Assembly: GCA_049287005.1 (NCBI GenBank)
Contig: JBAQEZ010000003.1
Coordinates: 95,493 to 159,492 of the forward strand
Reading direction: 5' to 3'
From: Candidatus Moraniibacteriota bacterium
Lineage (GTDB): Bacteria > Patescibacteriota > Minisyncoccia > Moranbacterales > UBA1568
Length of the DNA stretch: 64,000 nucleotides
Shown here: positions 1 to 45,837 of the stretch, piece after piece
Numbering within the stretch: the first letter of the stretch is position 1
How the letters are laid out: each line of letters begins with the position of its first letter
Position numbers and translations under genes: made by a program
Notes under the pieces: model-generated
Database searches by the model: none
What the model saw: the letters and a program-made list of their open reading frames with translations, nothing else
What the model was told of the DNA's origin: nothing

Positions 1-1078
1 CGTTCGATCGTTTTTGATCTTTTCGTTGTATTCCTTGAAGTGTCTTTTTAATTCCTCTAGCACTTTCGGATCATAAATTATGCTCATCAGAGGTAATGAA
101 ATTTGGTTTAATCGCGGCTCGATGTCGGGGTTGCTGAGTTCCGGTCGTAATTTGTGTTTACCCTTCTCTTTGAAACGGAACATGAGGAGTTTGTTCCTGA
201 GTAACAACGCCTCTCTTTTGAAATCATCGGAGATGTTGGTCGCAATATCCTCTCGCTTGGTTATCAGACTCATGTCCTCGGTTATCATTCGGCTTTCAAG
301 AGCAGGATCTTTGTAGAGTTCCCGTGTCGCAATCAACTTCGGACCGAATACATTGAATGATTTCGCATCATAGCTTTTTTTGTTGTTCGCCTCGCTCCTG
401 AGAACAGGAACATCCTTCATGAATCCCATATTGAGGATTTTCACGATGTCCGCTGTTGTCGTAGACATCTCGAAATCCGCCTCATCCAGCGTGAGCGTTC
501 CCCTGAAGTCTTCCAGTATCCTAAATATGGGTGATATTGTCGTTGCTCCAGCGGTAAAAATCGGCCGATAGCAGACCGAGCCTATAACCTGCAGAAACCG
601 TGATTTTCCTGTACCGTAATCACCGAGAGCACGCAGATACGGAAGCTCGTTGAAGTCGTCATGTATCCAGGTGAACATGGCGTAGTAGCTCGCCACATCC
701 TCGAAGAAAGGAGAAACAGCAAGATACTTCCGCATGAAAGCCTTTATCTGCTTGGCGAGGTCTTCGCGTGAAACATATTCGCCGACTGCCGATGGGAACA
801 ACACGACTCTGTTTCGAAGTAGGTTCTTATTCGGCGAATGAGGAATATATGTTATCCCGTTGTGCTCAAACATCTTCTCGATCTTTACTTCTCCGCTTGA
901 ACAGACTGCAAAGCTCGTCTCGGATTTTTCGGCATCGTAAAGCATTTCAACTAATGTCCCGTCGTTTAGAGCCAAAAAAGCAATCTCAGTCGGCTTCGGG
1001 GAGGTGCTTTTTTCTGGTGTGTCTTTTTTCTCCAATTCCTTTTTTAATGTTTCTAATTTGATGTGTTCTCTGGATTCC
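1..1078 (-). CDS. P-loop NTPase (Walker A GDYGTGKSRFLQ), putative replication ATPase/helicase of mobile element; partial, 3' end beyond window start
   Basis: Manual reverse-complement translation from ATG at 1078 gives an uninterrupted >350-aa frame down to position 1 (MESREHIKLETLKK...GDYGTGKSRFLQVIGSV...). It is absent from the ORF track because no stop lies inside the window. It starts 5 nt downstream of the zinc-finger gene stop. Confidence 0.6.
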
Positions 1079-1083
1079 ATAGG

Positions 1084-1698
1084 TTAAATGAGCATCTTTA
1101 CTGCCTCAGTGAACCTGACTCCGTAAAGATGCATGGTAAAAGTTATTACGTCGCCTCCCTCATGACATCCGAAGCAGTGAAATGTATTGCTATCGGTGAA
1201 GAAATAACATGAAGGAGTCTTTTCGTTGTGGAACGGGCAAAGGGCTACGAAGTTCTTTCCCGAAGCCTTCAGTTCAAGTTTGTCTCGAGCGAGATCGCAA
1301 ATCGGACGAACCCTGGCAGCCGCAATGAGTTCCTGCATGTCTATCCATCGTCGAGAATTACTTTCTTTTGGACTGCTTATAATTGCAAGCTGTCTTTTGA
1401 GACGAAAGAGATGATTTTCGGCGGTGATTAACTTCGGTATGCTTAGTTTTTCGATAAAGACCTCGTAGATGTCGTGATCTTTTTCGGGTATAGAGGCGAG
1501 TTGTTCCTGTATTTGCGCTTTCAGGCAGTCACACCTCTCTTGCTGCTCGTTGATCTTTTCCTGTAGCGTTTCCTTGTCTATTGGAAACACTTCGAGAAGC
1601 TCTCGATCGTTCAGTTTCGGCAATGATTTTCTCCACTCCCTCTCCCAATCAAGCGAAGCGAAAAAGAGTTCTTCATCATCCGAAAAGTCTTGTTTCAT
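1084..1698 (-). CDS. DnaG-type CHC2 zinc-finger domain protein (primase zinc finger located at the C-terminus)
   Basis: The C-terminal CPFHNEKTPSCYF...FHCFGCHEGGDVITF matches the canonical DnaG CHC2 zinc-finger consensus. The N-terminal 150 aa are charged/coiled-coil-like. Confidence 0.75.
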   Translation of the reverse strand: MKQDFSDDEELFFASLDWEREWRKSLPKLNDRELLEVFPIDKETLQEKINEQQERCDCLKAQIQEQLASIPEKDHDIYEVFIEKLSIPKLITAENHLFRLKRQLAIISSPKESNSRRWIDMQELIAAARVRPICDLARDKLELKASGKNFVALCPFHNEKTPSCYFFTDSNTFHCFGCHEGGDVITFTMHLYGVRFTEAVKMLI

Positions 1699-1828
1699 AT
1701 TTGAATGCGCATAATAGCTTACGCTTCATATAATGACTCTTCGATTAGTCGGATGAGTAAATAAAAAACCGCTTGTTAGAGCGGTTATTATCGTTCGACC
1801 AATATTTTATTCGATTAATATTCGAATG

Positions 1829-2716
1829 CTAGATAGTTTTATCGATATATAGTGATCGGTATTGTGATGGAATATTTTTTACCAACTCAACCTTTACAGG
1901 GATTTCGTTTTTTAATACGAGAATATTCTCCTGCTTCGATTTTTGTATCAAAGTAGGTTTTCTCAAGCCGTTGGTTTTCATGTATTCTTTTAGGCGACTT
2001 CTTTTGAATAATCCATTATTAATACAGTCCTGTAGATTTTTATCGAAATCAACTCTCGTTCCAGGTGCATTCACTATATAGGCGATAGAGTGGAGTTTTT
2101 TTATATAAGTATCCTCACCCTTGGCATTTTTGACTTCAAAGCGTATGGGTGATTCGTATCTTCCATCATACACAAGAAATATCACGTCGTTTGGTTGTAG
2201 CGTTTCAGCAACCAGACTTAAAGACTTCAATTCCTTCTCTTGGGTGCTTGTTTTGGTTTTAGGAATCATATCCATCCGAGCATCAACAAGGTGCTTTAAA
2301 AACAGAAAGTCAGCGGCTTCCGAATTGAATTTAATCGCGAGTTCGTAATCGCCGTAATATGTGACAGATTTCAGTATCCCAAAATATTCATGAAACATTC
2401 CAAGCGCATTCATAATATCTTCCCTACTGATACTCTCGGGGAAAGCATGAAATGGGAGGTTAAACCATAATCCATGCGGATACCGCCTAAGCTCATCTTG
2501 TCGCGACTTTGTATCGAGTGTGCTAATTTCTTTCCCGGCCCTGTCCGCAAGCACCTGCATGACCTTGAAAAGTTTTTCAATCTGACTATCTGGCAAACCT
2601 GAAAATAAATGCTGAATACTATCAGGTAATCGTGGATATTCCGGATTCTTCCATGAAGAAGATAGTGGCGCTATGGCTGGATCATTCTCTTTGGATTCGA
2701 CAGTGAGGGGTGTCAT
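1829..2716 (-). CDS. hypothetical protein (island 1)
   Basis: 295-aa ORF in an AT-rich island with no recognisable motifs; divergent from the 3000..3410 gene. Confidence 0.5.
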   Translation of the reverse strand: MTPLTVESKENDPAIAPLSSSWKNPEYPRLPDSIQHLFSGLPDSQIEKLFKVMQVLADRAGKEISTLDTKSRQDELRRYPHGLWFNLPFHAFPESISREDIMNALGMFHEYFGILKSVTYYGDYELAIKFNSEAADFLFLKHLVDARMDMIPKTKTSTQEKELKSLSLVAETLQPNDVIFLVYDGRYESPIRFEVKNAKGEDTYIKKLHSIAYIVNAPGTRVDFDKNLQDCINNGLFKRSRLKEYMKTNGLRKPTLIQKSKQENILVLKNEIPVKVELVKNIPSQYRSLYIDKTI

Positions 2717-2942
2717 TTGATTTTTTTAGTTGTTTATCTTGATATTCCCGCATATTGTACAGAAAAGCAAGTTGCCTTTTGCTTTATTTGAGTGTACTTT
2801 ATATATGAACCCACAATTGAAAAATACTGAGGTAAAGCCTTTGAGGTTTTGTCCTATCACGCTTTTTAGCGGGCGGCTCGGCGCACATGATAGGACACCT
2901 CGGTGCTTCTCGATTGTGGGTTCCGTCGGGTCGTCCACTCAA

Positions 2943-2965
2943 GTGAACATGTGAACGTAGTGAAC
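2943..2965. repeat. three tandem GTGAAC hexamers (iteron-like) in a divergent intergenic region
   Basis: caaGTGAACatGTGAACgtaGTGAACttc read directly; it lies next to a local GC-rich patch (2866-2940) inside the AT-rich island. Confidence 0.4.
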
Positions 2966-2999
2966 TTCTCGGCGACTTAAATTCATTTAGGTCGCTTTT

Positions 3000-3410
3000 A
3001 TGTTTGATAAAAAGGTAGACTACAATGCTTTAAACGCTCGACAGAAAGAGATTTACAACTTTCAAAAGGCTTCTGCTATTTTTGCTGAATTTGGATATAC
3101 GACCGTTAAGCTCTCTGATGATTGGATGGGGGCTGATTTTATCGCGATCAGTTTCGACGGATCGCAGTATCTCAGGGTTCAATTGAAGGGTCGTTTAACT
3201 TTCGATAAGAAATATCAAGGGAAGGGTATATACATTTGTTTCTATGATAAGAAAAGTGAGTGCTGGTACCTATATAATCATGATGAAATTTTGAAAAAAG
3301 TCATTAAATCAATTGAGAATAGTGATACATGGAATACAAACAAGCCGTATCACTATAAGTATCTCCAGTCAGAACACATGGAAATGTTAAGTTCGTGCAA
3401 AATTGGCTGA
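3000..3410 (+). CDS. hypothetical protein
   Basis: 136-aa ORF; a possible D...QxK nuclease-like motif (DFIAISFD...LRVQLKG) is weak. Confidence 0.45.
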   Translation: MFDKKVDYNALNARQKEIYNFQKASAIFAEFGYTTVKLSDDWMGADFIAISFDGSQYLRVQLKGRLTFDKKYQGKGIYICFYDKKSECWYLYNHDEILKKVIKSIENSDTWNTNKPYHYKYLQSEHMEMLSSCKIG

Positions 3411-3481
3411 AATTGTACTTTTTTGAGATTACGTCATATTTTGAGATTCGTTGGCATGTTCAAAATTTGTACACAGTAATT

Positions 3482-4066
3482 ATGAGAAAATATCTGAGGA
3501 GGTTGCAAAAGAAGATAAGGGGCATGGATACCGATGCTAAGTATGTCGCTGGGGCATACTTATTTGTTTTTATGTTCGTCGGTACAGCGGGTGTGCTCGC
3601 AGCATCTGGGTGGCATCCTGAGATAGCACCTTCGACACGAGTACGACCAGCGATGATGGAAAAAATTATACCTGCGGAAACAAAGTCGCTCTTCGATGAG
3701 AAGGAAGATGTTGTCGAGAAGCAATCCGTTTCAACTAAGAAGGCTATTCAGCCGATTGAACCGAGTAATGTTACGGATGTTACCTTGAAGACAGATCAGA
3801 AAAAAGCAGACCAAATAAAGACAGATGAATTGAAGAAGCAGCTTAAGATAGCCAAGGAAATTGAGAGGCAAGCGAAAGAGAGCTTCGATGAACTCAAGAA
3901 GACATTGAGCACACCGATTGCTCCTCCGCCAGCTATTAAGCCGTTCCCTGTTGCAAAAGCGCCAGAGCCAATAAAGGTGGATCTGCCGACAACCCATTAC
4001 ACGACAACTTGTTGGGATGATTTTCTTTTGGGCAAACAATGCAAGACAACGATGAGCGTTTATTGA
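3482..4066 (+). CDS. membrane-anchored charged/coiled-coil protein, hypothetical
   Basis: The ORF track frame 3395..4066 contains an N-terminal hydrophobic anchor (YVAGAYLFVFMFVGTAGVLAASG) followed by a K/E-rich region. The likely start is ATG 3482 or 3524 (the latter preceded by AAGGGG). Confidence 0.5.
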   Translation: MRKYLRRLQKKIRGMDTDAKYVAGAYLFVFMFVGTAGVLAASGWHPEIAPSTRVRPAMMEKIIPAETKSLFDEKEDVVEKQSVSTKKAIQPIEPSNVTDVTLKTDQKKADQIKTDELKKQLKIAKEIERQAKESFDELKKTLSTPIAPPPAIKPFPVAKAPEPIKVDLPTTHYTTTCWDDFLLGKQCKTTMSVY

Positions 4067-4120
4067 TGAAATGCTTTATTTAAAACAAAATTAGTGTTTA
4101 GACTCAATTTTCTTTACGCC

Positions 4121-4150
4121 AAACCCTCTCATCTAGAGGGTTTTTTGTTT
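4121..4150 (+). terminator. rho-independent terminator
   Basis: aaaCCCTCTcatcTAGAGGGttttttg: a GC hairpin plus T-run downstream of the 4066 stop. Confidence 0.6.
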
Positions 4151-4171
4151 CTACATAATAAAGTGCCTGCA

Positions 4172-4315
4172 ATAAAAGGCTTTATCTGAAACAAAGATAG
4201 GTGTTTGCTCATACTTTTTCAATTTAGATGTCTGCTTATTGTGTAGAGACAGATTTTCTAATCAATGTATCAAAAAAGGCTTTAAATAAAGCAAATCTAT
4301 GTGTTTGCTCAAATA
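4172..4315 (+). repeat. two short copies (A 4172-4215, B 4272-4315) of the island repeat family: hairpin aaaaGGCTTTAaaTAAAGC plus ATGTGTTTGCTCA
   Basis: Direct sequence comparison; copy B is followed by a sigma70-like promoter TTGCTC-16nt-TATAAT (4305-4332). Confidence 0.6.
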
Positions 4316-4409
4316 TTTTTAAAAAGTATAATTTCAAGTGATTGATCTTTTATGCTATTGCAAGAGCCTTTCTTTTATCCCTTGGACTCACAAAACACCC
4401 CCAGTCACA

Positions 4410-4557
4410 CAGAAAGATAAAAAACATAAAGATATATGGCCGGTATGTCGAAGTGTGCTCTAGGGATGAAATGGGCTTCGGAGCCATGTTAATAATAATG
4501 TATAAACAAAAAAAGGTTTTAAATAAAGCCAATTGATATGTTTGCTTAACTTTTTAG
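4410..4557 (+). repeat. long copy C (~150 bp) of the island repeat family
   Basis: About 75% identical to 5961-6105 (cagaaaNNaaaaNcataaagatatatNgccNgta...gggatgaaat...aaaGGTTTTAaaTAAAGCCaattgatatgtttgcttaa). Confidence 0.65.
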
Positions 4558-4590
4558 ATAAAAACAAGACCGCCTTTCAGCGGTCTTGTA
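4553..4590 (-). terminator. rho-independent terminator for the XRE-ImmA operon (minus strand)
   Basis: ACAAGACCGCctttcaGCGGTCTTGT is a 10-bp stem. On the minus strand it is followed by TTTTTATCT. Confidence 0.5.
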
Positions 4591-4899
4591 ATGGAAGTGT
4601 CTTGCTATTTTCGGAGCCGTTCACATTCCTTGCAGAGAGGTTTTCCGCCATTGCCCTGACGGAGATTCTCTCGCTCGATGTTGTTCCCGGTGTTACATTC
4701 CGTATTATCATGATGTACGGACTGTTTCACTGAGTGCCACGGTGATTTACGCATATGCGTGATGTGTGGGGTTGATTAGGTGGGCGTCAGCATGATACAT
4801 TTGATATGCAATATTTTTGTATTAGCTGGCTTTTAAGAGAACGACGCCGAGTTCTTTAAGAGAGAACTCCTCAAATTTAAACGCCCAAAGAAACCGCTA

Positions 4900-5448
4900 T
4901 TACTGGCGGCTTTTTTTGACCCTCAAATCTTTCTCTATACCAAGTTCGTTCAGACGATAGCCTAAAGCTTCTCCAGAAACTTTGAAAATGGAAGTCATTC
5001 GGACTTTCCGCAGATCAATGTCTAAATTGCTGAAAGCCTCCCACTTTTCTTTAAAGACTTCTCTGGGCATAAGGAATGCTGCTGCGAATCGGTTACAGAA
5101 CCGCTCCTCCTCGTTCATTGTGTATAGATTTCCATCGAAAAAGCCGAATGCAATCCCAGAGTTACGGATGACATGACCAACTTCATGACAGAGCGTGAAA
5201 TTCTGCCTTCGCGGATAGTCGGACTCTTTGATCCAAATTCTGTACTCGTCAGTAGCGGGATCGTAATATGTGAGACCAGAGATTTTCACAAAATGTTCTC
5301 CATCACCATGTCCAATCCAGATTTTTATCCCGAATTGATCTTCAACCCATTTGACCAATTCATGTATGGATGGCATAGGAGAGCCAATACTGTGAAAGAT
5401 GGCATTTGCTGTTCTTTCTGCCTCGATGTTTATTTTTGGGTAATTCAT
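4900..5448 (-). CDS. ImmA/IrrE-family zinc metallopeptidase
   Basis: HEVGHVI (HExxH) motif; 182 aa; immediately downstream of, and co-oriented with, the XRE repressor gene, the classic prophage/ICE immunity pair. Confidence 0.8.
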   Translation of the reverse strand: MNYPKINIEAERTANAIFHSIGSPMPSIHELVKWVEDQFGIKIWIGHGDGEHFVKISGLTYYDPATDEYRIWIKESDYPRRQNFTLCHEVGHVIRNSGIAFGFFDGNLYTMNEEERFCNRFAAAFLMPREVFKEKWEAFSNLDIDLRKVRMTSIFKVSGEALGYRLNELGIEKDLRVKKSRQ

Positions 5449-5452
5449 GATG

Positions 5453-5833
5453 TTACTTTTTGAGGTGATCGATGAGGTTCTCTATGATGCGGACAGCCTC
5501 CTTATTATCCATGCCATATTGCTGTCTGAGATAGACGCTTAAGGATGGAGTTGAGGGTTGGTCGCTTATAACCTTGAGAAGGCCTAAAATCTCTTTGACT
5601 TTGACGCTGAACCCGTCAGCTAGTTTGATAAGCGTATCAAGAGAGATATTTTTTTCATCAAACTCCCCATTTTCTATCTTTGAAATGAAACTCTTGGAGA
5701 GGGAGGCTCTCTCGGCTAATTCGTCCAGTGTGAAGCCCCTGTTTTTTCGGAGTTCTGATACGATTTCGCTCAATATCATATGTAGTTTATTTAAGTACAA
5801 TGAGAGTCTATCATAGGAAACTTTTTTGTGCAA
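5453..5833 (-). CDS. XRE-family helix-turn-helix transcriptional regulator
   Basis: HTH FTLDELAERASLSKSFISKIENGE; an alternative start at Met19 (5779) is more typical. Confidence 0.8.
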   Translation of the reverse strand: MHKKVSYDRLSLYLNKLHMILSEIVSELRKNRGFTLDELAERASLSKSFISKIENGEFDEKNISLDTLIKLADGFSVKVKEILGLLKVISDQPSTPSLSVYLRQQYGMDNKEAVRIIENLIDHLKK

Positions 5834-5960
5834 GGGGCGGTGAGCAAGGTACTCATTGAAGGAAAAAACTTCGGCTCTAACTGCACCCGCCCAAATATTT
5901 TTTTAGAGAGTGTTTTTGAATGATTTCATTCCTCGGATTCACAGAATACTCTCAGTTATA

Positions 5961-6105
5961 CAGAAATCCAAAAAGCATAAAGATATATAGCCAGTACGCC
6001 GAGGTGTCCTCTGGGGATGAAATATGGATTTGTAAGCTTGTCGTGTAATAACTCACAAACAAAAGGCTTCATTTGAAGCCAATTCATATGTTTGCTTAAT
6101 TATTT
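5961..6105 (+). repeat. long copy D of the island repeat family, in the divergent XRE / DUF4238-gene regulatory region
   Basis: See copy C. The hairpin here is GCTTCAttTGAAGC, versus GCTTTAaaTAAAGC in copies A and B: compensatory changes that preserve the palindrome. Confidence 0.65.
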
Positions 6106-6187
6106 TTCATTTGATTGCGGTCGGCGATTTTTTTGTGAATTGCGTATATACTGAAAGTGTTTCTTTTTCAGGCTTTCACCAAAAATT

Positions 6188-8659
6188 ATGTCCATAACAC
6201 ATCGTAATCATTATGTCCCTGAATGGTATCAAAAACGTTTTATATTACCAGGACAAAACAAACTACATTATTTGGATCTTTGCCCAGATAAAAAAATACT
6301 TGCTGATGGAAGAATTGTAACAATGAATTCTCATTTCTTCTGGGCGCCAAGTCAGTGCTTTTACAAAGAAGATTTGTATACGACATCCCTTTTTGGAAAT
6401 GAAAATGATGAAATCGAGAAATATCTTTTTGGGAGTATAGATATAACTGGAGCTAAGGCACTCCGTGCCATTGTAAGTAATGATATACAAAAACTCCACG
6501 ATTCGTTTAGTAGCTTTTTTGAATATTTAGATGCTCAGAAATTGAGAACTCCAAAGGGATTGGGTTGGATAAATGTTAATTATCCCAGGCTTACTCAGCT
6601 TCAATTGATGCTTGAGATGCAACAAATCAGACAACTGCACTGCACTATGTGGGTTGAGGCGGTGCGCGAAATAGTTTCTGCTGAAGATTCAGAGATTAAA
6701 TTTATAATTACTGATCATCCTGTTACTATTTATAATCCCGGATGCTCTCCAGGCACAAAATATTGCACATATCCAAATGAACCGTCTATAGCCCTAAAAG
6801 GAACACAGACCGTTTTCCCGCTGGATCTAAACCATTGTTTGATTTTAACCAATCTAGAATATGCGCAGGAGCCATTTTTAAAAGATTTACTTTCTAATAG
6901 GACAAATGCGCGGAATTTTGGACAAACAACTTCTCGTATTGATAATTGGATTAGAACCAGAAAGCTCAAGGATTTAGAGGTTAAAAAAATCAATTATATC
7001 TTAAAGTCACGAGCATCTAAGCATATCGCTGCTTCCAAGAAAGAGTGGCTTTATCCTGAAAAGGATATTAAAGAAACTTGGCAAAAAATAGGGCAAGTAC
7101 TTTTACCTCCAAAAAATGAGTTACACCATTTTGGAGGTGAGATGTACATGGGATACAAAGACGGAACAGTTCATTATCAGGATGCATTTGGGCGTACTAC
7201 TGGAGATACGTCGTATTTAAAAAAGCCAATCCCGAAAGGTAAAATTGGTAATAATGACCCGTGCGTTTGTGGAAGCGGAAGGAAATATAAAAAATGTTGT
7301 TTAGGAAAGAAGCCTGAAGATATGCCGGATACTACCGAGTACAGTATTCGAGAAAGAAATATTATATTCTCAAAAATTCTAGAAGACATACTGGGTCTAT
7401 CTAAAGGAAAAACCTGGGAAGATGTTCGAAAAGAATTAAGTGATGAGCAAGTAAAAAAAATCTACGAAGCTTTTCAGGGTTTATGGCCTAAAGATACAAA
7501 TATTATTAATTTATTGCCACACCCAGATGAAAGAATATCGAGAGCGCTGTATGCTGGTTTAATAGATCCTAGAACTGCAGCGAGAGATATAATCAGCTAT
7601 ACGCCCTATTTCGACGAAATTCTGGTCATAAATCCCTTTATGAATCCCGCCTATATAAGCCCGGAGTACAATCCGATAAATTTTCCGGGTCAATATAAAC
7701 AAGAGGTGTTAAAAAATGTTTTATTTTTCTTACAGCTGATGCCTTTTATAGAAATAGGCGCTGTGAATATAATTCCTGATCCCTGTTCTACTAATTATCG
7801 ATTACAAAGACAGATCTGGGATTTGGCGGAGTCACGTCATAAAAGATATAAATTAGAAGGATTTGACTTTGACCTCGAATCTGACGAGTCAATAAAAAAA
7901 ATATTTGAAGATGATTTTAAAAGGGGGATGACTGGTTTTTCTGACGAACATCTAATACAAAGCATAAAAAAAAGATTGCCAAAGCTACCTGATAGAGAAT
8001 TAGGAGAATTATTGGATTATATAAAAAAAGAGCGATTGAAAGACCCCTTGGCATTACTTCAGCCCATGGAAGACAATGAAAAAAGTGGACAGATGACTGC
8101 TACTCATGTAACCCCAAATCTTGAGCTTGGTTTCTTTATTGCGCAGCTTACGGGCTCGTTTATTTATACAGATAGTAAAGTGAGATGGCAAGAAATAACA
8201 AGATCAACTAAAGCCAGTGAGGATGAGAATAAAATGCCTTGGGAGTTTTTAGCAAAAACAATTAATGATATTGATTTCAATCTTGAAATTGACCCTTTAT
8301 TTAATTTTAAAATAAGAAAAACTGGGAAATTAGGATTAATAAGGGGTGCTGTAAGAAGATTGTGCACTACAATAAAAAATGAGCAAGATGCTCCTAAAAT
8401 TAAAATTTTAAACAAATCCTTATCTGACGAAATTATATTAGCGCACCAGAAGTCAGAAAAAGAGTTAGAAGCAATCAGGAAAGACAATGAGAAGCAGAAG
8501 GATGAAATTAGCTTTACATTTAAAAGTAAGATGACCTGTTTGATTTCTGTGGATGACTTTTTTTCATTAATACCAGTTCAAAGACTTGTTTTATCGTATG
8601 GGGCGAAACCTCAAAAAATAGTGCCAATAGCTGTATTCATTGAACATAATGATTGCTAG
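6188..8659 (+). CDS. large DUF4238-like protein with SEC-C metal-binding motif and ~450-aa C-terminal extension (candidate phage-defence/abortive-infection protein)
   Basis: N-terminus HRNHYVPEWYQKRFILPG resembles the DUF4238 start (HYVPxFYLxxF; family recall from memory). CVCGSGRKYKKCC matches the SEC-C motif exactly. 823 aa, inside an AT-rich island next to the ImmA/XRE pair. Confidence 0.55.
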   Translation: MSITHRNHYVPEWYQKRFILPGQNKLHYLDLCPDKKILADGRIVTMNSHFFWAPSQCFYKEDLYTTSLFGNENDEIEKYLFGSIDITGAKALRAIVSNDIQKLHDSFSSFFEYLDAQKLRTPKGLGWINVNYPRLTQLQLMLEMQQIRQLHCTMWVEAVREIVSAEDSEIKFIITDHPVTIYNPGCSPGTKYCTYPNEPSIALKGTQTVFPLDLNHCLILTNLEYAQEPFLKDLLSNRTNARNFGQTTSRIDNWIRTRKLKDLEVKKINYILKSRASKHIAASKKEWLYPEKDIKETWQKIGQVLLPPKNELHHFGGEMYMGYKDGTVHYQDAFGRTTGDTSYLKKPIPKGKIGNNDPCVCGSGRKYKKCCLGKKPEDMPDTTEYSIRERNIIFSKILEDILGLSKGKTWEDVRKELSDEQVKKIYEAFQGLWPKDTNIINLLPHPDERISRALYAGLIDPRTAARDIISYTPYFDEILVINPFMNPAYISPEYNPINFPGQYKQEVLKNVLFFLQLMPFIEIGAVNIIPDPCSTNYRLQRQIWDLAESRHKRYKLEGFDFDLESDESIKKIFEDDFKRGMTGFSDEHLIQSIKKRLPKLPDRELGELLDYIKKERLKDPLALLQPMEDNEKSGQMTATHVTPNLELGFFIAQLTGSFIYTDSKVRWQEITRSTKASEDENKMPWEFLAKTINDIDFNLEIDPLFNFKIRKTGKLGLIRGAVRRLCTTIKNEQDAPKIKILNKSLSDEIILAHQKSEKELEAIRKDNEKQKDEISFTFKSKMTCLISVDDFFSLIPVQRLVLSYGAKPQKIVPIAVFIEHNDC

Positions 8660-8749
8660 TTTGTAAAAATTCAGCTCTAACTGCATGATTATCCGTTCAA
8701 AAGAACTAATGGATTGTTAAAAAATATTAAACTGATATACACTTCATAA

Positions 8750-9463
8750 GTGAGATCCATAAAAGACGGGCTATACAATTACTTATCCCAACACAGCACG
8801 AGACGATTTAAAATACTCGTGGTATTTTTGTTTTTCTCCCTGGTTGGATTAATTACATTATTTGCTAATAAGGTATTTTCTGACCAAAATTTATACTATT
8901 ATACCTTTAGTACTATAGTCCAGGGGTTTCTAGCATTGGTTGCATTCCTTGGGGCAGTGGTCATTTATAAATTGCAGATTATTGAGTCTGATTTGGAAAA
9001 AATATCTAATAATCTATACTTCTTTATAAAAGTCTTCCCTCCATTCTCTGAATCAGTTGAAGGTGTTCATTCTTGGGCCGAAATTATGAATGAGGGGGGA
9101 AGAATCATAAATACACCCGAGAATAAAACAGGTATGTACTCTGATTCTATACAGAGAGCTGAGATTTATTGGAATAAACTGCGCAAATTGTCTAGTGATC
9201 GAGGAGATATTAGAACGAAAATGGTTGATTTTAGCTTATTCTCATTTCTGAATGTGGGGTTTTCTCTAATTTCAATGCCTATTACGAGACTATTTGTAGA
9301 GCAAAAGTTGTTTTATTTTGGAGAGGTTTTTATTATTATTGGTATTTTAATTAGCTGTTTTTCTCTTTTTCTAGCATTTGGGATTATCCGTGCCGTTTTG
9401 GGGTACTCTTTTTCAGCTAAGTTTGAGGCCGCCGCTTTTAAGCTAAACGCTAGAATCCATTAA
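8750..9463 (+). CDS. polytopic membrane protein, hypothetical (possible partner of DUF4238 protein)
   Basis: GTG start directly after an in-frame stop; at least 5 hydrophobic helices. Confidence 0.5.
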   Translation: MRSIKDGLYNYLSQHSTRRFKILVVFLFFSLVGLITLFANKVFSDQNLYYYTFSTIVQGFLALVAFLGAVVIYKLQIIESDLEKISNNLYFFIKVFPPFSESVEGVHSWAEIMNEGGRIINTPENKTGMYSDSIQRAEIYWNKLRKLSSDRGDIRTKMVDFSLFSFLNVGFSLISMPITRLFVEQKLFYFGEVFIIIGILISCFSLFLAFGIIRAVLGYSFSAKFEAAAFKLNARIH

Positions 9464-9679
9464 AGTTATTTATTTTCTAGTTGTTGCTCTTTTTATCTAA
9501 GTCACAACAGATAAGCACTTCAATAAGGAGTTGATTTAGTGATACTAGTCAGAAATTCAGTTCTAACCGTATTAACTACCCAGCTCAGATAAAAACAAGG
9601 CTCATCCGCCAGTCGGCAGAGAGCCTTATTTGTTATCCTCACAGTGGACGGTCAAACCGATGAATGTTATGGTAATGGT

Positions 9680-11532: not shown

Positions 11533-11555
11533 CAGGCCATGCGGCTCGTAAAACC

Positions 11556-11588
11556 TTCCCACGTGGAACCGTTTTTTACTCGAAGGGC
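11556..11588 (+). terminator. terminator hairpin containing a near-copy of the TTCCACGTGGAA palindrome core
   Basis: aaaaCCTTCCCACGTGGAACCGtttttt: a near-palindrome plus T-run just after the VKOR stop. Confidence 0.5.
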
Positions 11589-11687
11589 GGTTTTTTGTTA
11601 TCTCTTTTGGTATTGGCTTAGATAAGGGATAAGATGAGAATTAATGCATAAAAATGCTTTATATAAGCCAAATATCTGTATCGTGCG

Positions 11688-15478: not shown

Positions 15479-15620
15479 ATGTAAATCACGATGCCTCTTA
15501 GAGGAGCTGCCATTCGTGCGCATCGCTTATGCTATACTTTCCTATCATACTGGTTTTTCTTGATTCGTCAATGCGTTGCCTCTTCACAAACACCCTATTT
15601 CCGCTATAATGAAGTGATTT

Positions 15621-17507
15621 ATGTTATTCTCTCCTATGATACGAAAGAGCGAACATCTCCCTGCCGGTCTCTCTTGGCATCGCATCTTTTTTGTTTTTTT
15701 TCTTTTCTCCCTTCCTTTTTCCATTCGCAAGGTTCTCGTTGTATTTTCTGCCGATGGCACTTTCAATGAGTATTTAGACGTATCCTTGTATCTTTCGGAT
15801 ATTTTGCTCCTCTGTACGGTATTTTCATACATATTATGCAATAAAGTATCAATATTGTCAATAGTATACTGGAGAAAGATGTTCCACGTGGAACATTTAT
15901 TCCTCCCTTTTTTTATTCCAGCCCTCTTGATCGTATGGTCCGGGCTCTCTATTTTTTGGTCGGCAAGTCCGCTACTCGCTGTGTATTCTTTCTCTCATCT
16001 CTTCGCAGGGTATCTTTTATACGTCTATATTTTTCTTTCTTGTGTTCCACGTGGAACAATCGCACGACATGAACCGTGTTCCACGTGGAACAAGTCTCAA
16101 ATTGGTACGGTGGAAATGTTCCACGTGGAACAATCGCACGACATGAACCGTGTTCCACGTGGAACATTCTGGTCTTGGATAGCCCAGTCCACAAAGAAAT
16201 GTTCCACGTGGAACACATATCAAGTGATTATGCTGGTATTTATAATCTCAGGTTTTTTTCAGTCCCTCATTGCTATTCTGCAATTCATAGAGCAAAAATC
16301 CCTTGGATTAAGCATTTTAGAGGAAAGTATCCTTTCACCGGCAAGTCCTGGGGTAGCCAAAGTAGTGATTGGTAGTGAGATATTCATAAGATCATACGGG
16401 CTGTTTCCTCACCCGAACATTCTTGGAGGTTTTTTGGCCGTATCTTTGCTGATGACCATAGTCTATCCATTGCTATTTACTTCCCAATTGTTCCACGTGG
16501 AACAATCAAACAGCATGAAGAATGTTCCACGTGGAACATTCTTGTCTTTTATTTCTCGTTGTATGGGTAAATGTTCCACGTGGAACACCTCACGGTCTCA
16601 TCTTGCAAAAATGTTCCACGTGGAACAATCGAGGTCTCTCTTTCTGTATAGAATGATTATTTTCTTTCAATCAGCCGCTCTTTTGTTCTCATTTTCCAAG
16701 ACGGCGATTGCTGGATTTATTATTGGGCTTGTTTTAGCCATTTTTGGTATGAAAAAAATGTTCCACGTGGAACAATCAAACAGCATGAAGAATGTTCCAC
16801 GTGGAACATTAATCGACTTAGAACCAGATACTGTGCAGAAATGTTCCACGTGGAACAAATTAAGTGCTCGTTTCAATAAAATGGGTATATTGTTCCACGT
16901 GGAACATTGGATCATTATGTTTGGCATTGTACTCACCGTTCTTGTGTTTGCCTCAGTGAATTTAAAACTTTTTATTGTTCAGCCCATTACGGAACGGCTC
17001 TTCTATATGCGGTCACTTCGGGTGTTGTGGCAAGAATATGCTTTTGAGGGCTTGGGAATAGGGCAATTTGTGTATAGGATACAGGATCTTTTCAGTGAAC
17101 CGCTCTTGAGCTGGCAGTTTCAGCCGATCCACAACGTATTTTTGCTTGTTTTCAGTGAAATCGGAGTCATTGGCCTTGGGCTGTTTCTCTGGTTTTACAT
17201 ATATGTTTTTCTAAAAAATAACCAAAATGTTCCACGTGGAACAAATCAACAAAAGGGCAGCCAATGTTCCACGTGGAACATTGGGAATAAAATTAGAGGA
17301 ATGTTCCACGTGGAACAATTTTCCGGCGTTCAGTTTCGGGGAGAATCAAAAGGCGGTAGGAAAGTTATCGCTGCCTATCTGCTCAGGTCTCTCTTGGTAG
17401 TAGTAGTCATTGCTATGCTCTTTGATCATTATTTCTGGGATATACAGCAGGGAGAACTCGTACTATGGATCATACTGGCTCTAGCCGTTTCTGAAAGCGG
17501 TTATTGA
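15621..17507 (+). CDS. O-antigen ligase (WaaL/Wzy_C)-like polytopic membrane protein carrying 17 in-frame palindromic-repeat insertions
   Basis: The 628-aa frame stays open. It has multiple TM helices and a conserved Wzy_C-like motif near the C-terminus (QPIHNVFLLVFSEIGVIGLGLF). The inserted peptides MFHVEQ / VPRGT / CSTWN are the three reading frames of the palindrome. Confidence 0.55.
   Translation: MLFSPMIRKSEHLPAGLSWHRIFFVFFLFSLPFSIRKVLVVFSADGTFNEYLDVSLYLSDILLLCTVFSYILCNKVSILSIVYWRKMFHVEHLFLPFFIPALLIVWSGLSIFWSASPLLAVYSFSHLFAGYLLYVYIFLSCVPRGTIARHEPCSTWNKSQIGTVEMFHVEQSHDMNRVPRGTFWSWIAQSTKKCSTWNTYQVIMLVFIISGFFQSLIAILQFIEQKSLGLSILEESILSPASPGVAKVVIGSEIFIRSYGLFPHPNILGGFLAVSLLMTIVYPLLFTSQLFHVEQSNSMKNVPRGTFLSFISRCMGKCSTWNTSRSHLAKMFHVEQSRSLFLYRMIIFFQSAALLFSFSKTAIAGFIIGLVLAIFGMKKMFHVEQSNSMKNVPRGTLIDLEPDTVQKCSTWNKLSARFNKMGILFHVEHWIIMFGIVLTVLVFASVNLKLFIVQPITERLFYMRSLRVLWQEYAFEGLGIGQFVYRIQDLFSEPLLSWQFQPIHNVFLLVFSEIGVIGLGLFLWFYIYVFLKNNQNVPRGTNQQKGSQCSTWNIGNKIRGMFHVEQFSGVQFRGESKGGRKVIAAYLLRSLLVVVVIAMLFDHYFWDIQQGELVLWIILALAVSESGY
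15880..17317. repeat. array of 17 perfect copies of the 16-bp palindrome TGTTCCACGTGGAACA (CACGTG core)
   Basis: Copies start at 15880, 16043, 16077, 16117, 16151, 16200, 16489, 16523, 16572, 16612, 16759, 16793, 16842, 16891, 17228, 17265, 17302. Four of them form composite units palindrome-18nt-palindrome, with related spacers ATCGCACGACATGAACCG (x2) and ATCAAACAGCATGAAGAA (x2). Confidence 0.95.
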
Positions 17508-39542: not shown

Positions 39543-39977
39543 ATGAGGCTGCGGAAAGTGTTCCTATCGATGCTTTTTGTAGCCTTTTTTCTTTGGCTGC
39601 ATTTTTGGCTACGCGCCTGGATGGTGGCGACACACGATGATACAACACTGTGCAACCCCGGTGGACCATTTGGGGTGATTTTCCCAGTGTGGCTGCTGAT
39701 CGCCTTCAGTTGCGGGATAGTGCTTCTTTTGTTGGGAGCGTGGCTGAAAGAAAAAGGCGTTGTCTTTGGTTGGCTATGGCTTCTCATCCTTTCCGGTGGC
39801 TTGGGAAACCTGTTGGAACGTATCCTTTTTGGTTGTATTATAGACTATGTAGCCCTGCCGTTTTTTCCGGTGTTCAATCTGGCAGATGTGTTACTGACCA
39901 TCGGGACGATAGGGATTTTGTGGGGCGCGCGTTCCAAGAAACAAGAGAAAGATTCACTGAATATTAGAAATGAGTAA
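39543..39977 (+). CDS. lspA: lipoprotein signal peptidase II
   Basis: The LspA motifs are all present: N.GG.FG (CNPGGPFG), GGLGNLLERI, IIDYV, FPVFNLADV. Confidence 0.8.
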   Translation: MRLRKVFLSMLFVAFFLWLHFWLRAWMVATHDDTTLCNPGGPFGVIFPVWLLIAFSCGIVLLLLGAWLKEKGVVFGWLWLLILSGGLGNLLERILFGCIIDYVALPFFPVFNLADVLLTIGTIGILWGARSKKQEKDSLNIRNE

Positions 39978-40671
39978 TGAGCTGTTTCTTCATAATACTA
40001 TGTCAGCGAAAATTTTTTCTGCGACAACCTTGGGGTTGGAAAGCGTTTCTGTAGAAGTGGAGGTGGATGTTCTGTCCGCAGGACTTCACGCTTTTACGCT
40101 GGTTGGATTGCCGGATACGGCTATCAAGGAATCGCGCGACCGTGTCAGCGCCGCGCTCAAAAATAGCGGTTTCAGGCCGCCGCATCAATGCGGTCGCGTG
40201 ACCGTCAATCTCGCTCCGGCCGATCTGCCGAAAAATACTCCCATCTATGATTTACCGATGGCGTTGGGATTTCTCTTGGCGACAGAACAACTCTCTTTCG
40301 ATCATCGAAAAAAACTATTCATCGGAGAACTGGCTTTGGATGGTAGCGTGCGCCGCGTGCAAGGCGTCTTGCCTATCGCTTTGTATGCGAAAGAAAAAGG
40401 GTTCCAAGAAATTTATGTTCCGGAGGATAACGCGTATGAAGCGGCGCTGGTCGAAGATATCGACGTGATTCCCGTGAAGCATCTTTTTGCTGTCGCGAAA
40501 CATCTGTGCGGGGAAAAATTGATAGAGCCGTACCGGCGAGAAGCGGTAGTCTTCTCTACGGAGGAATATGATGGACTGGATATGGCCTACGTACTGGGCC
40601 AAGAACACGCCAAGCGGGCGCTCGAAATCGCGGCGGCGGGAGGGCACAATACGCTAATATACGGTCTATAA
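39970..40671 (+). pseudogene. comM: comM/yifB (Mg-chelatase-like AAA+ competence protein) N-terminal fragment, truncated by island insertion
   Basis: Ends ...AKRALEIAAAGGHNTLIYGL*, exactly where ComM normally continues into the Walker A (GGHNxxxxGPPGSGKT). The continuation is found at 51467. Confidence 0.8.
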
Positions 40672-40727
40672 AGTTGACAAATAGGAAATAAGGTATATAG
40701 TGGCTATACATAAGTTAAAGCCATTAT

Positions 40728-42515: not shown

Positions 42516-42680
42516 TCATTCTTCTAACTTTTGGCTATGGAATCAGGTAATTTATAAGTATTATTGGGTGGTCAAAAAATGCAGATTGAGGCTTGATTAA
42601 AGGTAATTTATGTGGTAAAATAATTGTGTTGGAAATACCGCAGAATACCGCAGTCTTAAAAAGAGTAAGCACAAAATAAT

Positions 42681-43835: not shown

Positions 43836-43843
43836 AATCCCCT

Positions 43844-45828: not shown

Positions 45829-45837
45829 TCGTTAATT

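What the first reader, a model, noticed from the sequence alone, without database searches (positions are those of the whole stretch)
15621..17507. A 16-bp perfect palindrome (TGTTCCACGTGGAACA) inserted 17 times, in-frame, into a WaaL-like membrane protein gene
Seventeen identical copies lie within 1.45 kb. They include four 50-bp composite units (palindrome-18nt-palindrome) whose spacers are related to each other (both contain CATGAA).

The palindrome has no stop codon in any of the six frames. Each copy is read as MFHVEQ, VPRGT or CSTWN depending on phase. The host ORF nevertheless stays open for 628 aa, and the segments between insertions still read as TM helices, ending in the Wzy_C-type motif PIHNVFLLVFSEIGVIGL.

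That pattern suggests the insertions are tolerated as loop insertions, in the way Rickettsia palindromic elements (RPEs) are.

No other gene in the window carries the element. A degenerate copy does form the VKOR terminator at 11560-11588, so the element may be dispersed genome-wide.

Alternative readings: a protein-binding or partition-type site array; the cognate site of an R-M or other DNA-binding system; a recombination hotspot diversifying a surface glycosylation enzyme.
Basis: partly seen in the sequence, partly recalled or inferred. Interest (0 to 1): 0.85.

Follow-up and report, generated by a model that had tools for sequence, protein, structure and literature searches.

The report
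Centromere site array inside a membrane-protein gene
The 17 identical palindromes are copies of the standard bacterial chromosome-segregation site (parS, where ParB binds), packed in-frame into the floppy cytoplasmic loops of one intact O-antigen-ligase-like gene, and relatives across a whole uncultivated phylum share this layout, so the same DNA serves as both centromere and coding sequence.

Summary
In detail: 17 exact TGTTCCACGTGGAACA lie at 15880-17317 inside an open 628-aa ORF, against 0 expected by chance. The RPE-like mobile-insertion reading does not hold.

The 16-mer is the published chromosomal parS (ParB-binding centromere) sequence. In about 18 orthologous loci from Moraniibacteriota/Parcubacteria MAGs, with conserved synteny and 30-59% protein identity, the same gene carries 1-17 exact copies. 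None occurs in roughly 280 kb of flanks.

Nucleotide identity to orthologues is 86-100% in the sites, 38-41% in the spacers and 53-63% in the coding core. All three reading phases are used. Variation falls almost only at the known degenerate parS positions 5 and 12.

The protein looks real. AlphaFold gives pTM 0.82, the best PDB fold match is WaaL, and catalytic-loop residues are invariant. The site-coded segments are the disordered loops. Spacer lengths change only in steps of 3.

In other phyla, clusters of the same 16-mer sit next to bona fide parB genes.

Gaps: no parB was visible in the window or near orthologues, the rest of the genome was inaccessible, and origin proximity is unresolved.

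Verdict: a new variant of a known kind, a dense parS array embedded in a gene.

The parts
15621..17507 (+). Host gene: a 628-aa polytopic membrane protein of the Wzy_C / WaaL-like (O-antigen-ligase) kind. It is intact, and NCBI annotates it only as a 425-aa C-terminal piece (WAV46_01595).
   Evidence: ORF. 437 homologues, many carrying precomputed PF04932. Pfam Wzy_C is sub-threshold here. AlphaFold pTM 0.82 with 12 long helices. Best PDB fold match is WaaL 7tpg_B, E=1.6e-4, prob 1.0. Residues near the N-terminus are nearly invariant in 97 homologues, so the long start is the right one.
15583..15610 (+). Sigma-70-like promoter candidate (TTCACA-16-TATAAT) just upstream of the ORF start.
   Evidence: Consensus scan, 11 of 12 matches. 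This is a pattern match only.
15880..15895 (.). parS site 1, in loop A (aa 87-92), read as MFHVEH.
   Evidence: A site sits at this position in 66 of 97 homologues. It is read as NVPRGT, a different phase, in orthologue L122.
16043..16215 (.). parS cluster B: 5 sites at 16043, 16077, 16117, 16151 and 16200, with phases 2-0-1-2-0. It codes loop B (aa 141-199).
   Evidence: pLDDT is below 50 for aa 146-180. 93 of 97 homologues have sites in this loop.
16489..16627 (.). parS cluster C: 4 sites at 16489, 16523, 16572 and 16612, with phases 1-2-0-1. It codes loop C (aa 290-336). This lineage has three more sites here than L125 and L241-L243, a 123-bp (41-codon) difference.
   Evidence: pLDDT is below 50 for aa 298-335.
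16759..16906 (.). parS cluster D: 4 sites at 16759, 16793, 16842 and 16891, with phases 1-2-0-1. It codes loop D (aa 380-429).
   Evidence: pLDDT is below 50 for aa 384-401. 90 of 97 homologues have sites in this loop.
17228..17317 (.). parS cluster E: 3 sites at 17228, 17265 and 17302, with phases 2-0-1. It codes loop E (aa 536-566).
   Evidence: pLDDT is below 50 for aa 541-574. 89 of 97 homologues have sites in this loop.
16043..16092 (.). 50-bp composite unit (site, 18 nt, site). It is identical to 16117-16166 but read in a different phase.
16117..16166 (.). Second copy of the 50-bp composite unit (spacer ATCGCACGACATGAACCG).
16489..16538 (.). 50-bp composite unit (spacer ATCAAACAGCATGAAGAA) in loop C. 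It is identical to 16759-16808 in loop D, which points to a short-tract copy between loops.
16759..16808 (.). Second copy of that composite unit, in loop D.
16389..16418 (+). Conserved extracytoplasmic motif R257-S-Y-G-L-F-P-H264-P-N266. It carries no parS site.
   Evidence: R257, Y259, H264, P265 and N266 are invariant in 97 homologues.
17121..17135 (+). Conserved extracytoplasmic motif Q501-P-I-H504-N. It carries no parS site.
   Evidence: Q501, P502 and H504 are invariant.

Best explanation
The 17 palindromes are chromosomal parS sites, the centromere-like sequences on which ParB (Spo0J) dimers load. They belong to a Candidatus Moraniibacteriota (CPR/Patescibacteria) chromosome.

The sites are written into a conserved WaaL/Wzy_C-like membrane-protein gene, in the parts that encode five disordered loops. 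I infer these loops to be cytoplasmic.

Shown here:
- The sequence is identical to experimentally characterised parS.
- Selection acts on the DNA word rather than on the peptides.
- The sites are confined to one gene.
- The arrangement is conserved across a phylum-level clade.
- The host protein is intact and the array is kept in frame.

Inferred mechanism, from established ParABS biology:
- ParB-CTP dimers nucleate at each 16-mer, close into clamps and slide off. Seventeen loading sites in 1.45 kb would therefore build one large partition complex.
- ParA would segregate that complex, and it may load SMC.
- The gene tolerates the sites for two reasons. The palindrome has no stop codon in any frame, and the loops are unconstrained in sequence.
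- The array changes by codon-sized spacer indels, by short copy events between loops, and by gain or loss of three-site blocks.
For: 1. Identity. TGTTCCACGTGGAACA is the published parS of P. aeruginosa, P. putida and B. bacteriovorus, and a form of the consensus TGTTNCACGTGAAACA. Purified ParB binds it in vitro.

2. Selection on DNA.
- Across orthologues, site columns are 86-100% identical. Loop spacers are 38-41% and the coding core 53-63%.
- Exact sites per gene are 17, 14, 14, 9, 9 and 1, with none at up to 2 mismatches in the +-10 kb flanks.
- 211 exact sites occur in 19 loci totalling 282 kb. All sites with up to 2 mismatches in the 20 loci examined lie within a 0.55-1.6 kb span inside the gene.
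- All three phases are used, and the homologous first site is MFHVEH in some orthologues and NVPRGT in another.
- Identical 50-bp units are read in different phases within one protein.

3. Pattern of variation. Changes occur almost only at positions 5 (C to T, 6 of 243) and 12 (G to A, 7 of 243), the known parS degeneracy. Symmetric flanks AAW...WTT are conserved in every phase.

4. Conservation that does not depend on the parS words. A search with the loop-deleted core still found at least one parS peptide in 44 of 48 new homologues. Synteny is conserved: 3D, DHH, RbfA, [this gene], TSP3 ... FtsH, TilS, RpsA, GyrA.

5. Decay where function was presumably lost. L248 keeps only relics with 2-3 mismatches at the homologous positions.

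6. Link to ParB in other phyla. 76 of 226 non-CPR loci with clustered copies of this 16-mer contain a GERRxRA ORF a median of 831 bp away. All 8 that were tested are ParB_N + HTH_ParB.

7. The host protein is real. Evidence: pTM 0.82; the low-confidence segments match the parS clusters; WaaL is the top fold hit; catalytic-loop residues are invariant; the parS loops carry net positive charge.

8. The array is translated. Neighbouring-site spacings form ladders in steps of 3. All six spacer-length differences between the window and its close relative L199 are +3 bp. Non-coding arrays elsewhere show no mod-3 pattern (122:106:121).
Against: - No parB or parA gene is present in the 64-kb window.
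- None lies within about 10 kb of the gene in 22 orthologous loci totalling 322 kb.
- The remaining ~700 kb of the source contig could not be reached, so whether this genome has a cognate ParB is untested.
- Origin proximity is unresolved. The window has no DnaA-box cluster and no dnaA, and GC skew does not change sign at the array here or in orthologous loci.
- The conserved AAW/WTT flanks extend beyond the canonical 16-mer. A specialised or different binder could account for them.
- Seventeen sites in 1.45 kb is far denser than in any studied chromosome.
- There is no binding, expression or proteomic evidence.
- The aligner tends to line up identical 16-mers, which inflates the site-column identity somewhat.
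Confidence: 0.8

Rival explanations
1. RPE-like mobile palindromic element. A selfish short element has inserted repeatedly and recently into the gene and is tolerated in loops. It has no function of its own.
For: - The insertions are in-frame and fall in loops.
- Copy number differs between relatives, from 1 to 17.
- Identical 50-bp units occur at two places, which shows that copying happens.
Against: - Only 16-22 bp are conserved, and spacers are about 40% identical.
- No copy lies outside this one gene in 64 kb, or in about 280 kb of orthologous loci.
- Sites occupy homologous positions in proteins only 30-59% identical, so they are old rather than recent.
- The word equals the canonical parS and varies only at the parS-degenerate positions.
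Confidence: 0.04
2. Binding array for a DNA-binding protein other than ParB. Candidates are a transcription factor that autoregulates the ligase gene, a Noc/KorB-like ParB paralogue, or a restriction-modification target (the core CACGTG is a known type II site).
For: - No parB was seen near the locus in any CPR relative.
- The conserved flanks AAW/WTT extend the site to about 22 bp.
- TrmB-family HTH genes lie next to the gene in several distant orthologous loci.
Against: - The full 16-mer is invariant, not just CACGTG, and it equals parS.
- CACGTG outside the array is not enriched: 6 found against about 13 expected.
- Clusters of the same 16-mer with the same 30-60 bp pitch sit beside bona fide parB genes in many phyla.
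- The TrmB neighbours are absent from the window's own clade.
Confidence: 0.08
3. Recombination or slippage hotspot whose primary role is to switch or diversify a surface-glycosylation enzyme. Seventeen 16-bp direct repeats in mixed phases would give frequent frameshifting deletions and duplications, turning the gene ON and OFF.
For: - Neighbouring sites are almost never in the same phase, so any single-unit slippage would frameshift.
- Copy number and spacer lengths differ between relatives.
Against: - This reading does not explain why the repeat must be exactly the parS word across a phylum, nor why its flanks are palindromic.
- All orthologues recovered on long contigs are intact ORFs.
- Classical phase-variation repeats are short tandem tracts, not 16-mers 34-50 bp apart (general knowledge).
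Confidence: 0.05
4. Functional peptide repeats. The selected objects would be MFHVEQ, VPRGT and CSTWN as protein motifs, with the DNA identity a by-product.
For: The peptides recur in nearly all homologues.
Against: - One DNA word yields three unrelated peptides.
- The same homologous site is read in different phases in different orthologues.
- There is no synonymous variation at all within the sites, while the surrounding codons vary freely.
- The segments are predicted to be disordered.
Confidence: 0.01

Closest known systems
Chromosomal parS / ParB (Spo0J) centromeres, e.g. B. subtilis, P. aeruginosa, C. crescentus, M. xanthus (22 sites), B. bacteriovorus
   Same: - The 16-bp palindrome is identical to the P. 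aeruginosa, P. putida and B. bacteriovorus parS.
- It shows the same degeneracy at positions 5 and 12.
- It has few locations per genome region.
- parS sites inside coding sequence are already known: the first B. subtilis site lies in spo0J (Lin and Grossman 1998, from my own knowledge).
   Different: - The density is 17 perfect sites in 1.45 kb. Studied chromosomes have 1-24 sites spread over kilobases to hundreds of kilobases (table).
- All sites lie inside one ORF, at five fixed loop positions.
- The arrangement is conserved over a candidate phylum.
- parAB is not adjacent.
- Origin proximity is not established.
Plasmid centromere repeat arrays such as F sopC (12 tandem 43-bp repeats, each with a 16-bp inverted repeat bound by SopB)
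   Same: Many closely spaced copies of one 16-bp palindromic ParB-type site, with a pitch of a few tens of bp. The pitch here is 34-49 bp. Non-coding arrays found in metagenomes have a ~44-bp period (L171).
   Different: The site sequence and ParB subfamily differ. sopC is non-coding, strictly tandem and next to sopAB. Here the array is broken into five blocks by transmembrane-coding segments and is translated.
Rickettsia palindromic elements (RPEs)
   Same: Palindromic DNA lies in-frame within protein-coding genes and is tolerated because it falls in permissive surface or loop regions.
   Different: RPEs are roughly 100-150 bp selfish elements scattered over many genes and intergenic regions, with no known DNA-level function (from my own knowledge). 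Here a 16-22 bp protein-binding word is confined to a single gene and is under strong purifying selection.
WaaL / Wzy_C O-antigen ligase family (PF04932; structure 7TPG)
   Same: Polytopic ~12-helix fold with WaaL as the best PDB match. There is a weak Wzy_C Pfam match over the helices around the large extracytoplasmic loop. Arg and His residues in the two extracytoplasmic loops are invariant.
   Different: The Pfam score is below the family cut-off. A 97-sequence profile finds no sequence-level match to any PDB chain. The four long disordered loop insertions of about 30-60 aa are absent from WaaL. Substrate and function in CPR bacteria are unknown.

Membership tests
Chromosomal parS (ParB/Spo0J-binding centromere site) | 16-bp palindrome matching the consensus TGTTNCACGTGAAACA | tested here: met
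   17 of 17 copies are TGTTCCACGTGGAACA. The literature gives this exact word as the parS of P. aeruginosa, P. putida and B. bacteriovorus, and gives the consensus.
Chromosomal parS (ParB/Spo0J-binding centromere site) | Natural variants differ mainly at the degenerate positions (5 and 12) while the core is invariant | tested here: met
   Among 243 sites from 20 CPR loci, position 5 is C 237 / T 6 and position 12 is G 236 / A 7. All other positions have at most 1 change. The set was collected at up to 2 mismatches.
Chromosomal parS (ParB/Spo0J-binding centromere site) | Cognate ParB (ParB_N + HTH_ParB), usually with ParA, encoded in the same genome | tested here: inconclusive
   None in the 64-kb window. 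None in 22 orthologous loci totalling 322 kb.
Chromosomal parS (ParB/Spo0J-binding centromere site) | [quoted passage not shown] | tested here: inconclusive
   gyrA lies 10 kb away in conserved synteny. However, there is no dnaA, no DnaA-box cluster and no GC-skew switch in the window or in orthologous loci.
Chromosomal parS (ParB/Spo0J-binding centromere site) | Few, regionally clustered copies rather than genome-wide dispersal | tested here: met
   There are no further copies at up to 2 mismatches in the window or in the flanks of any orthologous locus. Only the held DNA was tested.
Chromosomal parS (ParB/Spo0J-binding centromere site) | Specific ParB binding, CTP-dependent clamp loading and spreading | not testable with these tools
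   This needs EMSA or BLI, CTPase assays or ChIP-seq. As indirect support, clusters of the same word lie beside verified ParB genes in 76 of 226 loci from other phyla.
Wzy_C / O-antigen ligase (PF04932, WaaL-like) | Pfam PF04932 match at or above the gathering score (31.7 bits) | tested here: not met
   The full ORF scores 19.2 bits (E=1.1e-3). With the parS loops removed it scores 28.3 bits (E=1.8e-6). Many orthologues do carry the precomputed PF04932 hit.
Wzy_C / O-antigen ligase (PF04932, WaaL-like) | Polytopic (~12 TM) fold like solved WaaL | tested here: met
   The AlphaFold model has pTM 0.82. The Foldseek PDB top hit is 7tpg_B WaaL, E=1.6e-4, prob 1.00, TM-score (target) 0.47. The next hit is FtsW at E=0.09.
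Wzy_C / O-antigen ligase (PF04932, WaaL-like) | Conserved Arg/His catalytic residues in the extracytoplasmic loops | tested here: inconclusive
   R257, H264, R459 and H504 are invariant in 97 homologues. Residue-by-residue equivalence to the WaaL catalytic residues was not established, and the profile finds no PDB sequence hit.
Rickettsia-palindromic-element-like mobile in-frame insertions | A conserved element of about 100 bp or more, beyond a short palindrome | tested here: not met
   Only the 16-mer plus 3-nt flanks are conserved. Spacers are 38-41% identical between orthologues.
Rickettsia-palindromic-element-like mobile in-frame insertions | Dispersed over many unrelated genes and intergenic regions of the genome | tested here: not met
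   All copies lie in one gene, both in the window and in about 18 related loci.
Rickettsia-palindromic-element-like mobile in-frame insertions | In-frame, and located in permissive (loop or surface) parts of the host protein | tested here: met
   All 17 fall in five inter-helix loops with pLDDT below 50. The same loops are used in 66-93 of 97 homologues.

The most novel reading that the evidence does not exclude
A 'frame-locked' centromere. The array sits inside a needed membrane-protein gene, and neighbouring sites are kept out of phase. Neighbour spacing mod 3 is 0:1:2 = 1:92:29, against 122:106:121 in arrays elsewhere.

Under that arrangement, deleting or duplicating a single unit between the 16-bp direct repeats frameshifts the protein and is purged by selection. 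Only three-site blocks or codon-sized indels survive. One example is the 123-bp, three-site difference in loop C, where the flanking distances are unchanged.

Selection on the protein would then stabilise an otherwise recombination-prone repeat centromere in a tiny, intergenic-poor genome. A further possibility is that co-translational membrane insertion of the product tethers the centromere to the membrane.
Probability: 0.25. Interest if true: 0.8.

Novelty: new variant of a known kind. Interest (0 to 1): 0.62.

Why it matters
- **A candidate centromere for an uncultivated phylum.** This would identify the chromosome-segregation site of Moraniibacteriota/Parcubacteria, for which I found no published ParABS or parS description.
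- **An extreme case of dual-use DNA.** The most conserved nucleotides of a protein-coding gene would be a protein-binding array read in all three frames.
- **A natural test bed.** It bears on how many closely packed ParB loading sites a partition complex uses, whether transcription and translation proceed through such a complex, and how repeat centromeres are kept stable.
- **Practical annotation value.**
  - It explains a recurrent class of odd 'hypothetical proteins' rich in MFHVE, VPRGT and CSTWN.
  - It explains truncated gene calls, such as the 425-aa NCBI call for this gene.
  - It explains contig breaks at parS arrays in metagenome assemblies.
- **A landmark.** The array is an easily searchable marker for orienting CPR MAGs.

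Tried and rejected
- **Reaching the rest of the source genome.** Exact-protein look-ups of the 628-aa ORF, of the NCBI 425-aa product and of KsgA were all 'not on record'. ParB, dnaA and genome-wide parS counts in the source genome therefore could not be obtained.
- **Looking for parB or parA next to orthologous genes.** Eight look-ups gave seven loci with DNA, and metagenome loci were added. None had one within about 10 kb.
- **Origin signals.** DnaA-box clusters and GC-skew switches near the array, in the window and in 10 orthologous loci, gave nothing.
- **Rfam on the window.** Only 5 tRNAs were found.
- **PDB sequence search with the family profile.** No hit.
- **Whole-collection scans.** They give examples, not frequencies or taxonomic distributions.
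- **Literature searches.** Nine searches on parS/ParB combined with CPR, Patescibacteria, Parcubacteria or O-antigen ligase, or on the peptide words, found nothing relevant to CPR. Livny et al. 2007 is not held.
- **Helical phasing of site spacing.** I considered it and dropped it. Spacings of 34, 37, 40 and 49 bp correspond to 3.2-4.7 turns with no common phase.
- **The 11560 hairpin as a dispersed degenerate copy.** Rejected. It is one half-site, and heptamer half-sites occur at chance frequency.
- **Terminator-like hits inside the ORF.** These are the palindromes with their T-rich flanks, and I did not treat them as terminators.
Full report
**1. Observation.**

The window contains exactly 17 copies of TGTTCCACGTGGAACA, all between 15880 and 17317. 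Dinucleotide-preserving shuffles give none. Allowing 3 mismatches adds only one chance-level hit at 60361.

All 17 lie in the ORF 15621-17507 (+), 628 aa. Depending on phase they are translated as (M/L)FHVE(H/Q), VPRGT or CSTWN.

They form one single site plus four clusters of 5, 4, 4 and 3 sites. Start-to-start spacings within clusters are 34, 37, 40 or 49 bp. The four 50-bp 'site, 18 nt, site' units are real and fall into two identical pairs.

The claimed degenerate copy at 11560 is only a 10-nt half-site in a hairpin. It does not show dispersal, because half-site heptamers outside the array occur at chance frequency.

**2. What the word is.**

The 16-mer is the published chromosomal parS. 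A full-text search finds it only in ParB/parS papers. A review table lists it for P. aeruginosa and P. putida and gives the general consensus TGTTNCACGTGAAACA. It is also the B. bacteriovorus parS used for in-vitro ParB binding and CTPase assays.

**3. Source and host gene.**

The closest database protein is the 425-aa C-terminal part of this ORF (P0001, 100% identical). It comes from a 766,823-bp contig of a 'Candidatus Moraniibacteriota bacterium' MAG. This taxon is a candidate phylum of the Parcubacteria/Patescibacteria (CPR) group.

The window is chromosomal. It carries rbfA, ftsH, tilS, rpsA, gyrA, ispG, pnp, ksgA and tRNAs, but no parA, parB or dnaA.

Pfam gives the ORF only a sub-threshold Wzy_C hit. 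The score is E=1.1e-3 for the full ORF, and 1.8e-6 (28.3 bits against a 31.7 cut-off) once the site-coded loops are deleted. Hundreds of homologues carry PF04932.

An AlphaFold model built on a 97-sequence alignment is confident in the membrane core (pTM 0.82, with 303 residues at pLDDT of 90 or more). Its best PDB match is the WaaL O-antigen ligase 7TPG (E=1.6e-4, prob 1.0).

The residues R257, Y259, H264, P265, N266, R459, Q501, P502, H504 and E513 are invariant in the family. A family profile finds no PDB chain by sequence, so 'WaaL-like' rests on fold and weak Pfam evidence.

The segments with pLDDT below 50 are aa 146-180, 298-335, 384-401 and 541-574. These are precisely the four parS clusters.

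Counting helices outward from the two conserved catalytic loops places all five parS-bearing loops on the opposite, cytoplasmic side. Their net positive charge agrees with that (K+R versus D+E of 7/4, 6/1, 6/4 and 5/1, against 3/3 and 5/5 in the catalytic loops). The topology is an inference.

**4. The arrangement is ancient and selected at the DNA level.**

- Nearly all of the top 120 homologues, at 30-59% identity, contain 1-18 parS-coded peptides. That search is biased by the shared peptide words, so I repeated it with the loops deleted. In the repeat, 44 of 48 newly found homologues still carry at least one.
- Seven orthologous loci fetched with DNA and 10-kb flanks share the neighbourhood 3D, (UDG), DHH, RbfA, [gene], TSP3 ... 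FtsH, TilS, Cmk/Gmk, RpsA, MBL, GyrA, in whole or in part.
- At DNA level the genes hold 17, 14, 14, 9, 9 and 1 exact 16-mers. One-mismatch variants are the canonical alternatives TGTTCCACGTGAAACA and TGTTTCACGTGGAACA. Nothing at up to 2 mismatches lies in the flanks.
- With metagenome loci added, 19 loci totalling 282 kb hold 211 exact sites. Every site with up to 2 mismatches lies within a 0.55-1.6 kb span inside the gene.
- In gene alignments the site columns are 86-100% identical to the window. Loop spacers are 38-41% and the coding core 53-63%.
- The homologous first site is read as MFHVEH in three orthologues and as NVPRGT in a fourth.
- Identical 50-bp units are read in different phases within the window protein.
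- Among 243 sites, variation is confined to positions 5 and 12. Symmetric flanks (A at -1 in 86%, T at +18 in 83%) extend the palindrome to AAW-16mer-WTT in every phase.
- Across 97 homologues the sites fall in the same five loops: 66, 93, 79 (plus 25 at the loop edge), 90 and 89 of 97. About 30 distant members carry one extra site in the second extracytoplasmic loop (ERLFYLNV[PS]RGT), which the window lacks.
- One parS-free orthologue keeps decayed relics at homologous positions.

These facts exclude protein-level repeats and a recent mobile element. They are what a conserved protein-binding site would produce.

**5. Link to ParB.**

The numbers below are therefore examples, not frequencies.

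Close clusters of this word occur in many phyla, including Acidobacteriota, Bacteroidota, Clostridia, Verrucomicrobiota, Methylococcaceae and Bdellovibrionales. Most such loci have 2-5 sites.

In 76 of 226 non-CPR loci, an ORF with the ParB box GERRxRA lies a median of 831 bp from the nearest site. All 8 that I tested are ParB_N + HTH_ParB, and five of them also match ParB_C.

Dense non-coding arrays also exist. L171 has 22 sites, 18 of them at a ~44-bp period and open in all six frames. L202 has 16, and L190/L224 have 14 with parB about 1 kb away in L224.

Dense arrays of chromosomal-type parS are therefore not unique to this locus. Among loci in the truncated sample with 9 or more sites, 11 of 15 belong to this Wzy_C orthogroup, as judged by a core HMM built without the parS loops. 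The orthogroup is also the case where the array is translated.

**6. The array is kept in frame.**

In the Wzy_C arrays, neighbouring-site spacings of 80 bp or less form two ladders in steps of 3. One runs 31, 34, 37, 40, 43, 46, 49, 52, 58. The other runs 35, 41, 47, 50, 53, 56, 59, 62.

Their mod-3 distribution is 0:1:2 = 1:92:29. In the non-Wzy loci it is 122:106:121, and spacing there is continuous from 27 to 60 bp. The Wzy counts are not independent events because of shared ancestry, and one near-duplicate pair (L143/L199) is included.

The window and its close relative L199 differ at six spacers, each by +3 bp. Loop C has three more sites here than in L125 and L241-L243. The extra length is 34+49+40 = 123 bp, or 41 codons, and the flanking distances of 289 and 147 bp are unchanged.

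Indels in multiples of three are the signature of a translated sequence. A good sigma-70-type promoter precedes the ORF.

ORF maintenance alone does not explain why neighbours are almost never in the same phase. My proposed reading is given under the novel case and is untested.

**7. Mechanism (inferred).**

By analogy with characterised systems, ParB-CTP dimers would nucleate on each site, close into clamps and slide away. The 17 sites would form one high-capacity loading platform for the partition complex that ParA moves and that can recruit SMC.

The all-frames stop-free variant TGTTCCACGTGGAACA is the one compatible with coding in any phase. The alternative TGTTTCACGTGAAACA contains TGA in phase 0, which may explain why the variant peptides VSRET and FHVK appear only in the other two phases.

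**8. Gaps.**

- The ParB of this genome was not seen, and the rest of the contig is inaccessible.
- No parAB lies within ~10 kb in any CPR relative.
- Origin proximity is undetermined.
- There are no binding or expression data.
- I found no paper describing parS or ParB in CPR bacteria, or parS arrays in an O-antigen-ligase gene. The library searched is incomplete, so this does not show that none exists.

**9. Verdict.**

The RPE-like interpretation is rejected, and the 'partition-type site array' alternative is supported at about 0.8.

The components are known. What is new is the architecture: an extremely dense parS array, conserved across a phylum, embedded in-frame in the loops of one functional membrane-protein gene. 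That makes it a new variant of a known kind, of moderate to high interest.

Noticed in passing
window 39970-52345: comM (Mg-chelatase-like competence gene) is split. The N-terminal part lies at 39970-40671 and the rest at 51362-52345. Between them is a ~10.7-kb low-GC insert (0.34-0.36, against ~0.50 in the flanks). It carries a large serine recombinase (40728-42515), a Dam-type N6-adenine methyltransferase (44392-45261) and a small terminase (50568-51104). It looks like a prophage or integrative element integrated into comM.
   Followed up: partly
window 1-9600: Low-GC island (0.36-0.43). It carries a DnaG-type CHC2 zinc-finger fragment, an IrrE/M78 peptidase and an 823-aa DUF4238 + SEC-C protein. 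It is probably another mobile or defence island.
   Followed up: no
window 53645-60289: Giant 2214-aa ORF with NHL, fibronectin-III and purple-acid-phosphatase-N repeats. It has higher GC (0.55-0.57) and is the only stretch of the window with negative GC skew.
   Followed up: no
window 15621-17507 versus NCBI WAV46_01595: The public annotation calls only the C-terminal 425 aa of this gene. Orthologues and nearly invariant N-terminal residues (F27, S34, R36, N49-Y51, D60) show that the 628-aa reading is the real one. The parS clusters seem to mislead gene callers.
   Followed up: yes
window 11553-11597: Imperfect hairpin containing a single parS half-site (CACGTGGAAC), followed by T-runs, downstream of the ORF that ends near 11533. 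About 0.1 such 10-mers are expected by chance. It is not a degenerate full site.
   Followed up: yes
CPR Wzy_C arrays: window 15880-17317, L125, L126, L122, L123, L143/L199, L241-L243 and others: Neighbouring parS sites are almost never in the same reading phase. Spacing mod 3 is 1:92:29, against 122:106:121 in arrays of other lineages. Modules recur within one gene, for example 34+49 three times in the window, 37+49 in L125 and 41+50 in L122. This suggests concerted evolution between loops.
   Followed up: partly
243 sites in 20 CPR loci, including window 15876-17321: The palindrome extends beyond the canonical 16 bp to AAW-TGTTCCACGTGGAACA-WTT, with A at -1 in 86% and T at +18 in 83%. This holds regardless of reading phase.
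   Followed up: partly
L171 12271-13979 (metagenome contig Ga0256914_1002894, contig end): 22 perfect parS sites. 18 of them form a near-regular ~44-bp tandem array that is open in all six frames, so it is apparently non-coding. The layout resembles F-plasmid sopC. L202 (16 sites) and L190/L224 (14 sites, GC 0.63-0.64, with parB about 1 kb away in L224) are further dense arrays outside the Wzy_C family.
   Followed up: partly
L248 10405 and 10969; L249 10546-11131: Some orthologues carry only decayed parS relics (2-3 mismatches) at the homologous loop positions. This implies loss or relocation of the centromere function in those lineages.
   Followed up: partly
About 30 of 97 homologues, aligned to window aa 465 (nt ~17013): Distant family members carry one additional parS inside the conserved second extracytoplasmic loop, read as ERLFYLNV[PS]RGT. 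The window has YMRSLRVL at that position.
   Followed up: partly
window 16518-16543 (+): One parS with its flanks forms an 11-bp-stem hairpin (AAGAATGTTCCACGTGGAACATTCTT) followed by a T-rich tail on the sense strand, inside the ORF. It scores as terminator-like and could attenuate transcription, or it may be only a by-product of the AT-rich palindromic flanks.
   Followed up: no
L121/L122, L127, L249 and the P0105 locus: TrmB-family HTH regulator genes recur next to the Wzy_C/parS gene in the more distant orthologous loci, but not in the window's clade.
   Followed up: no
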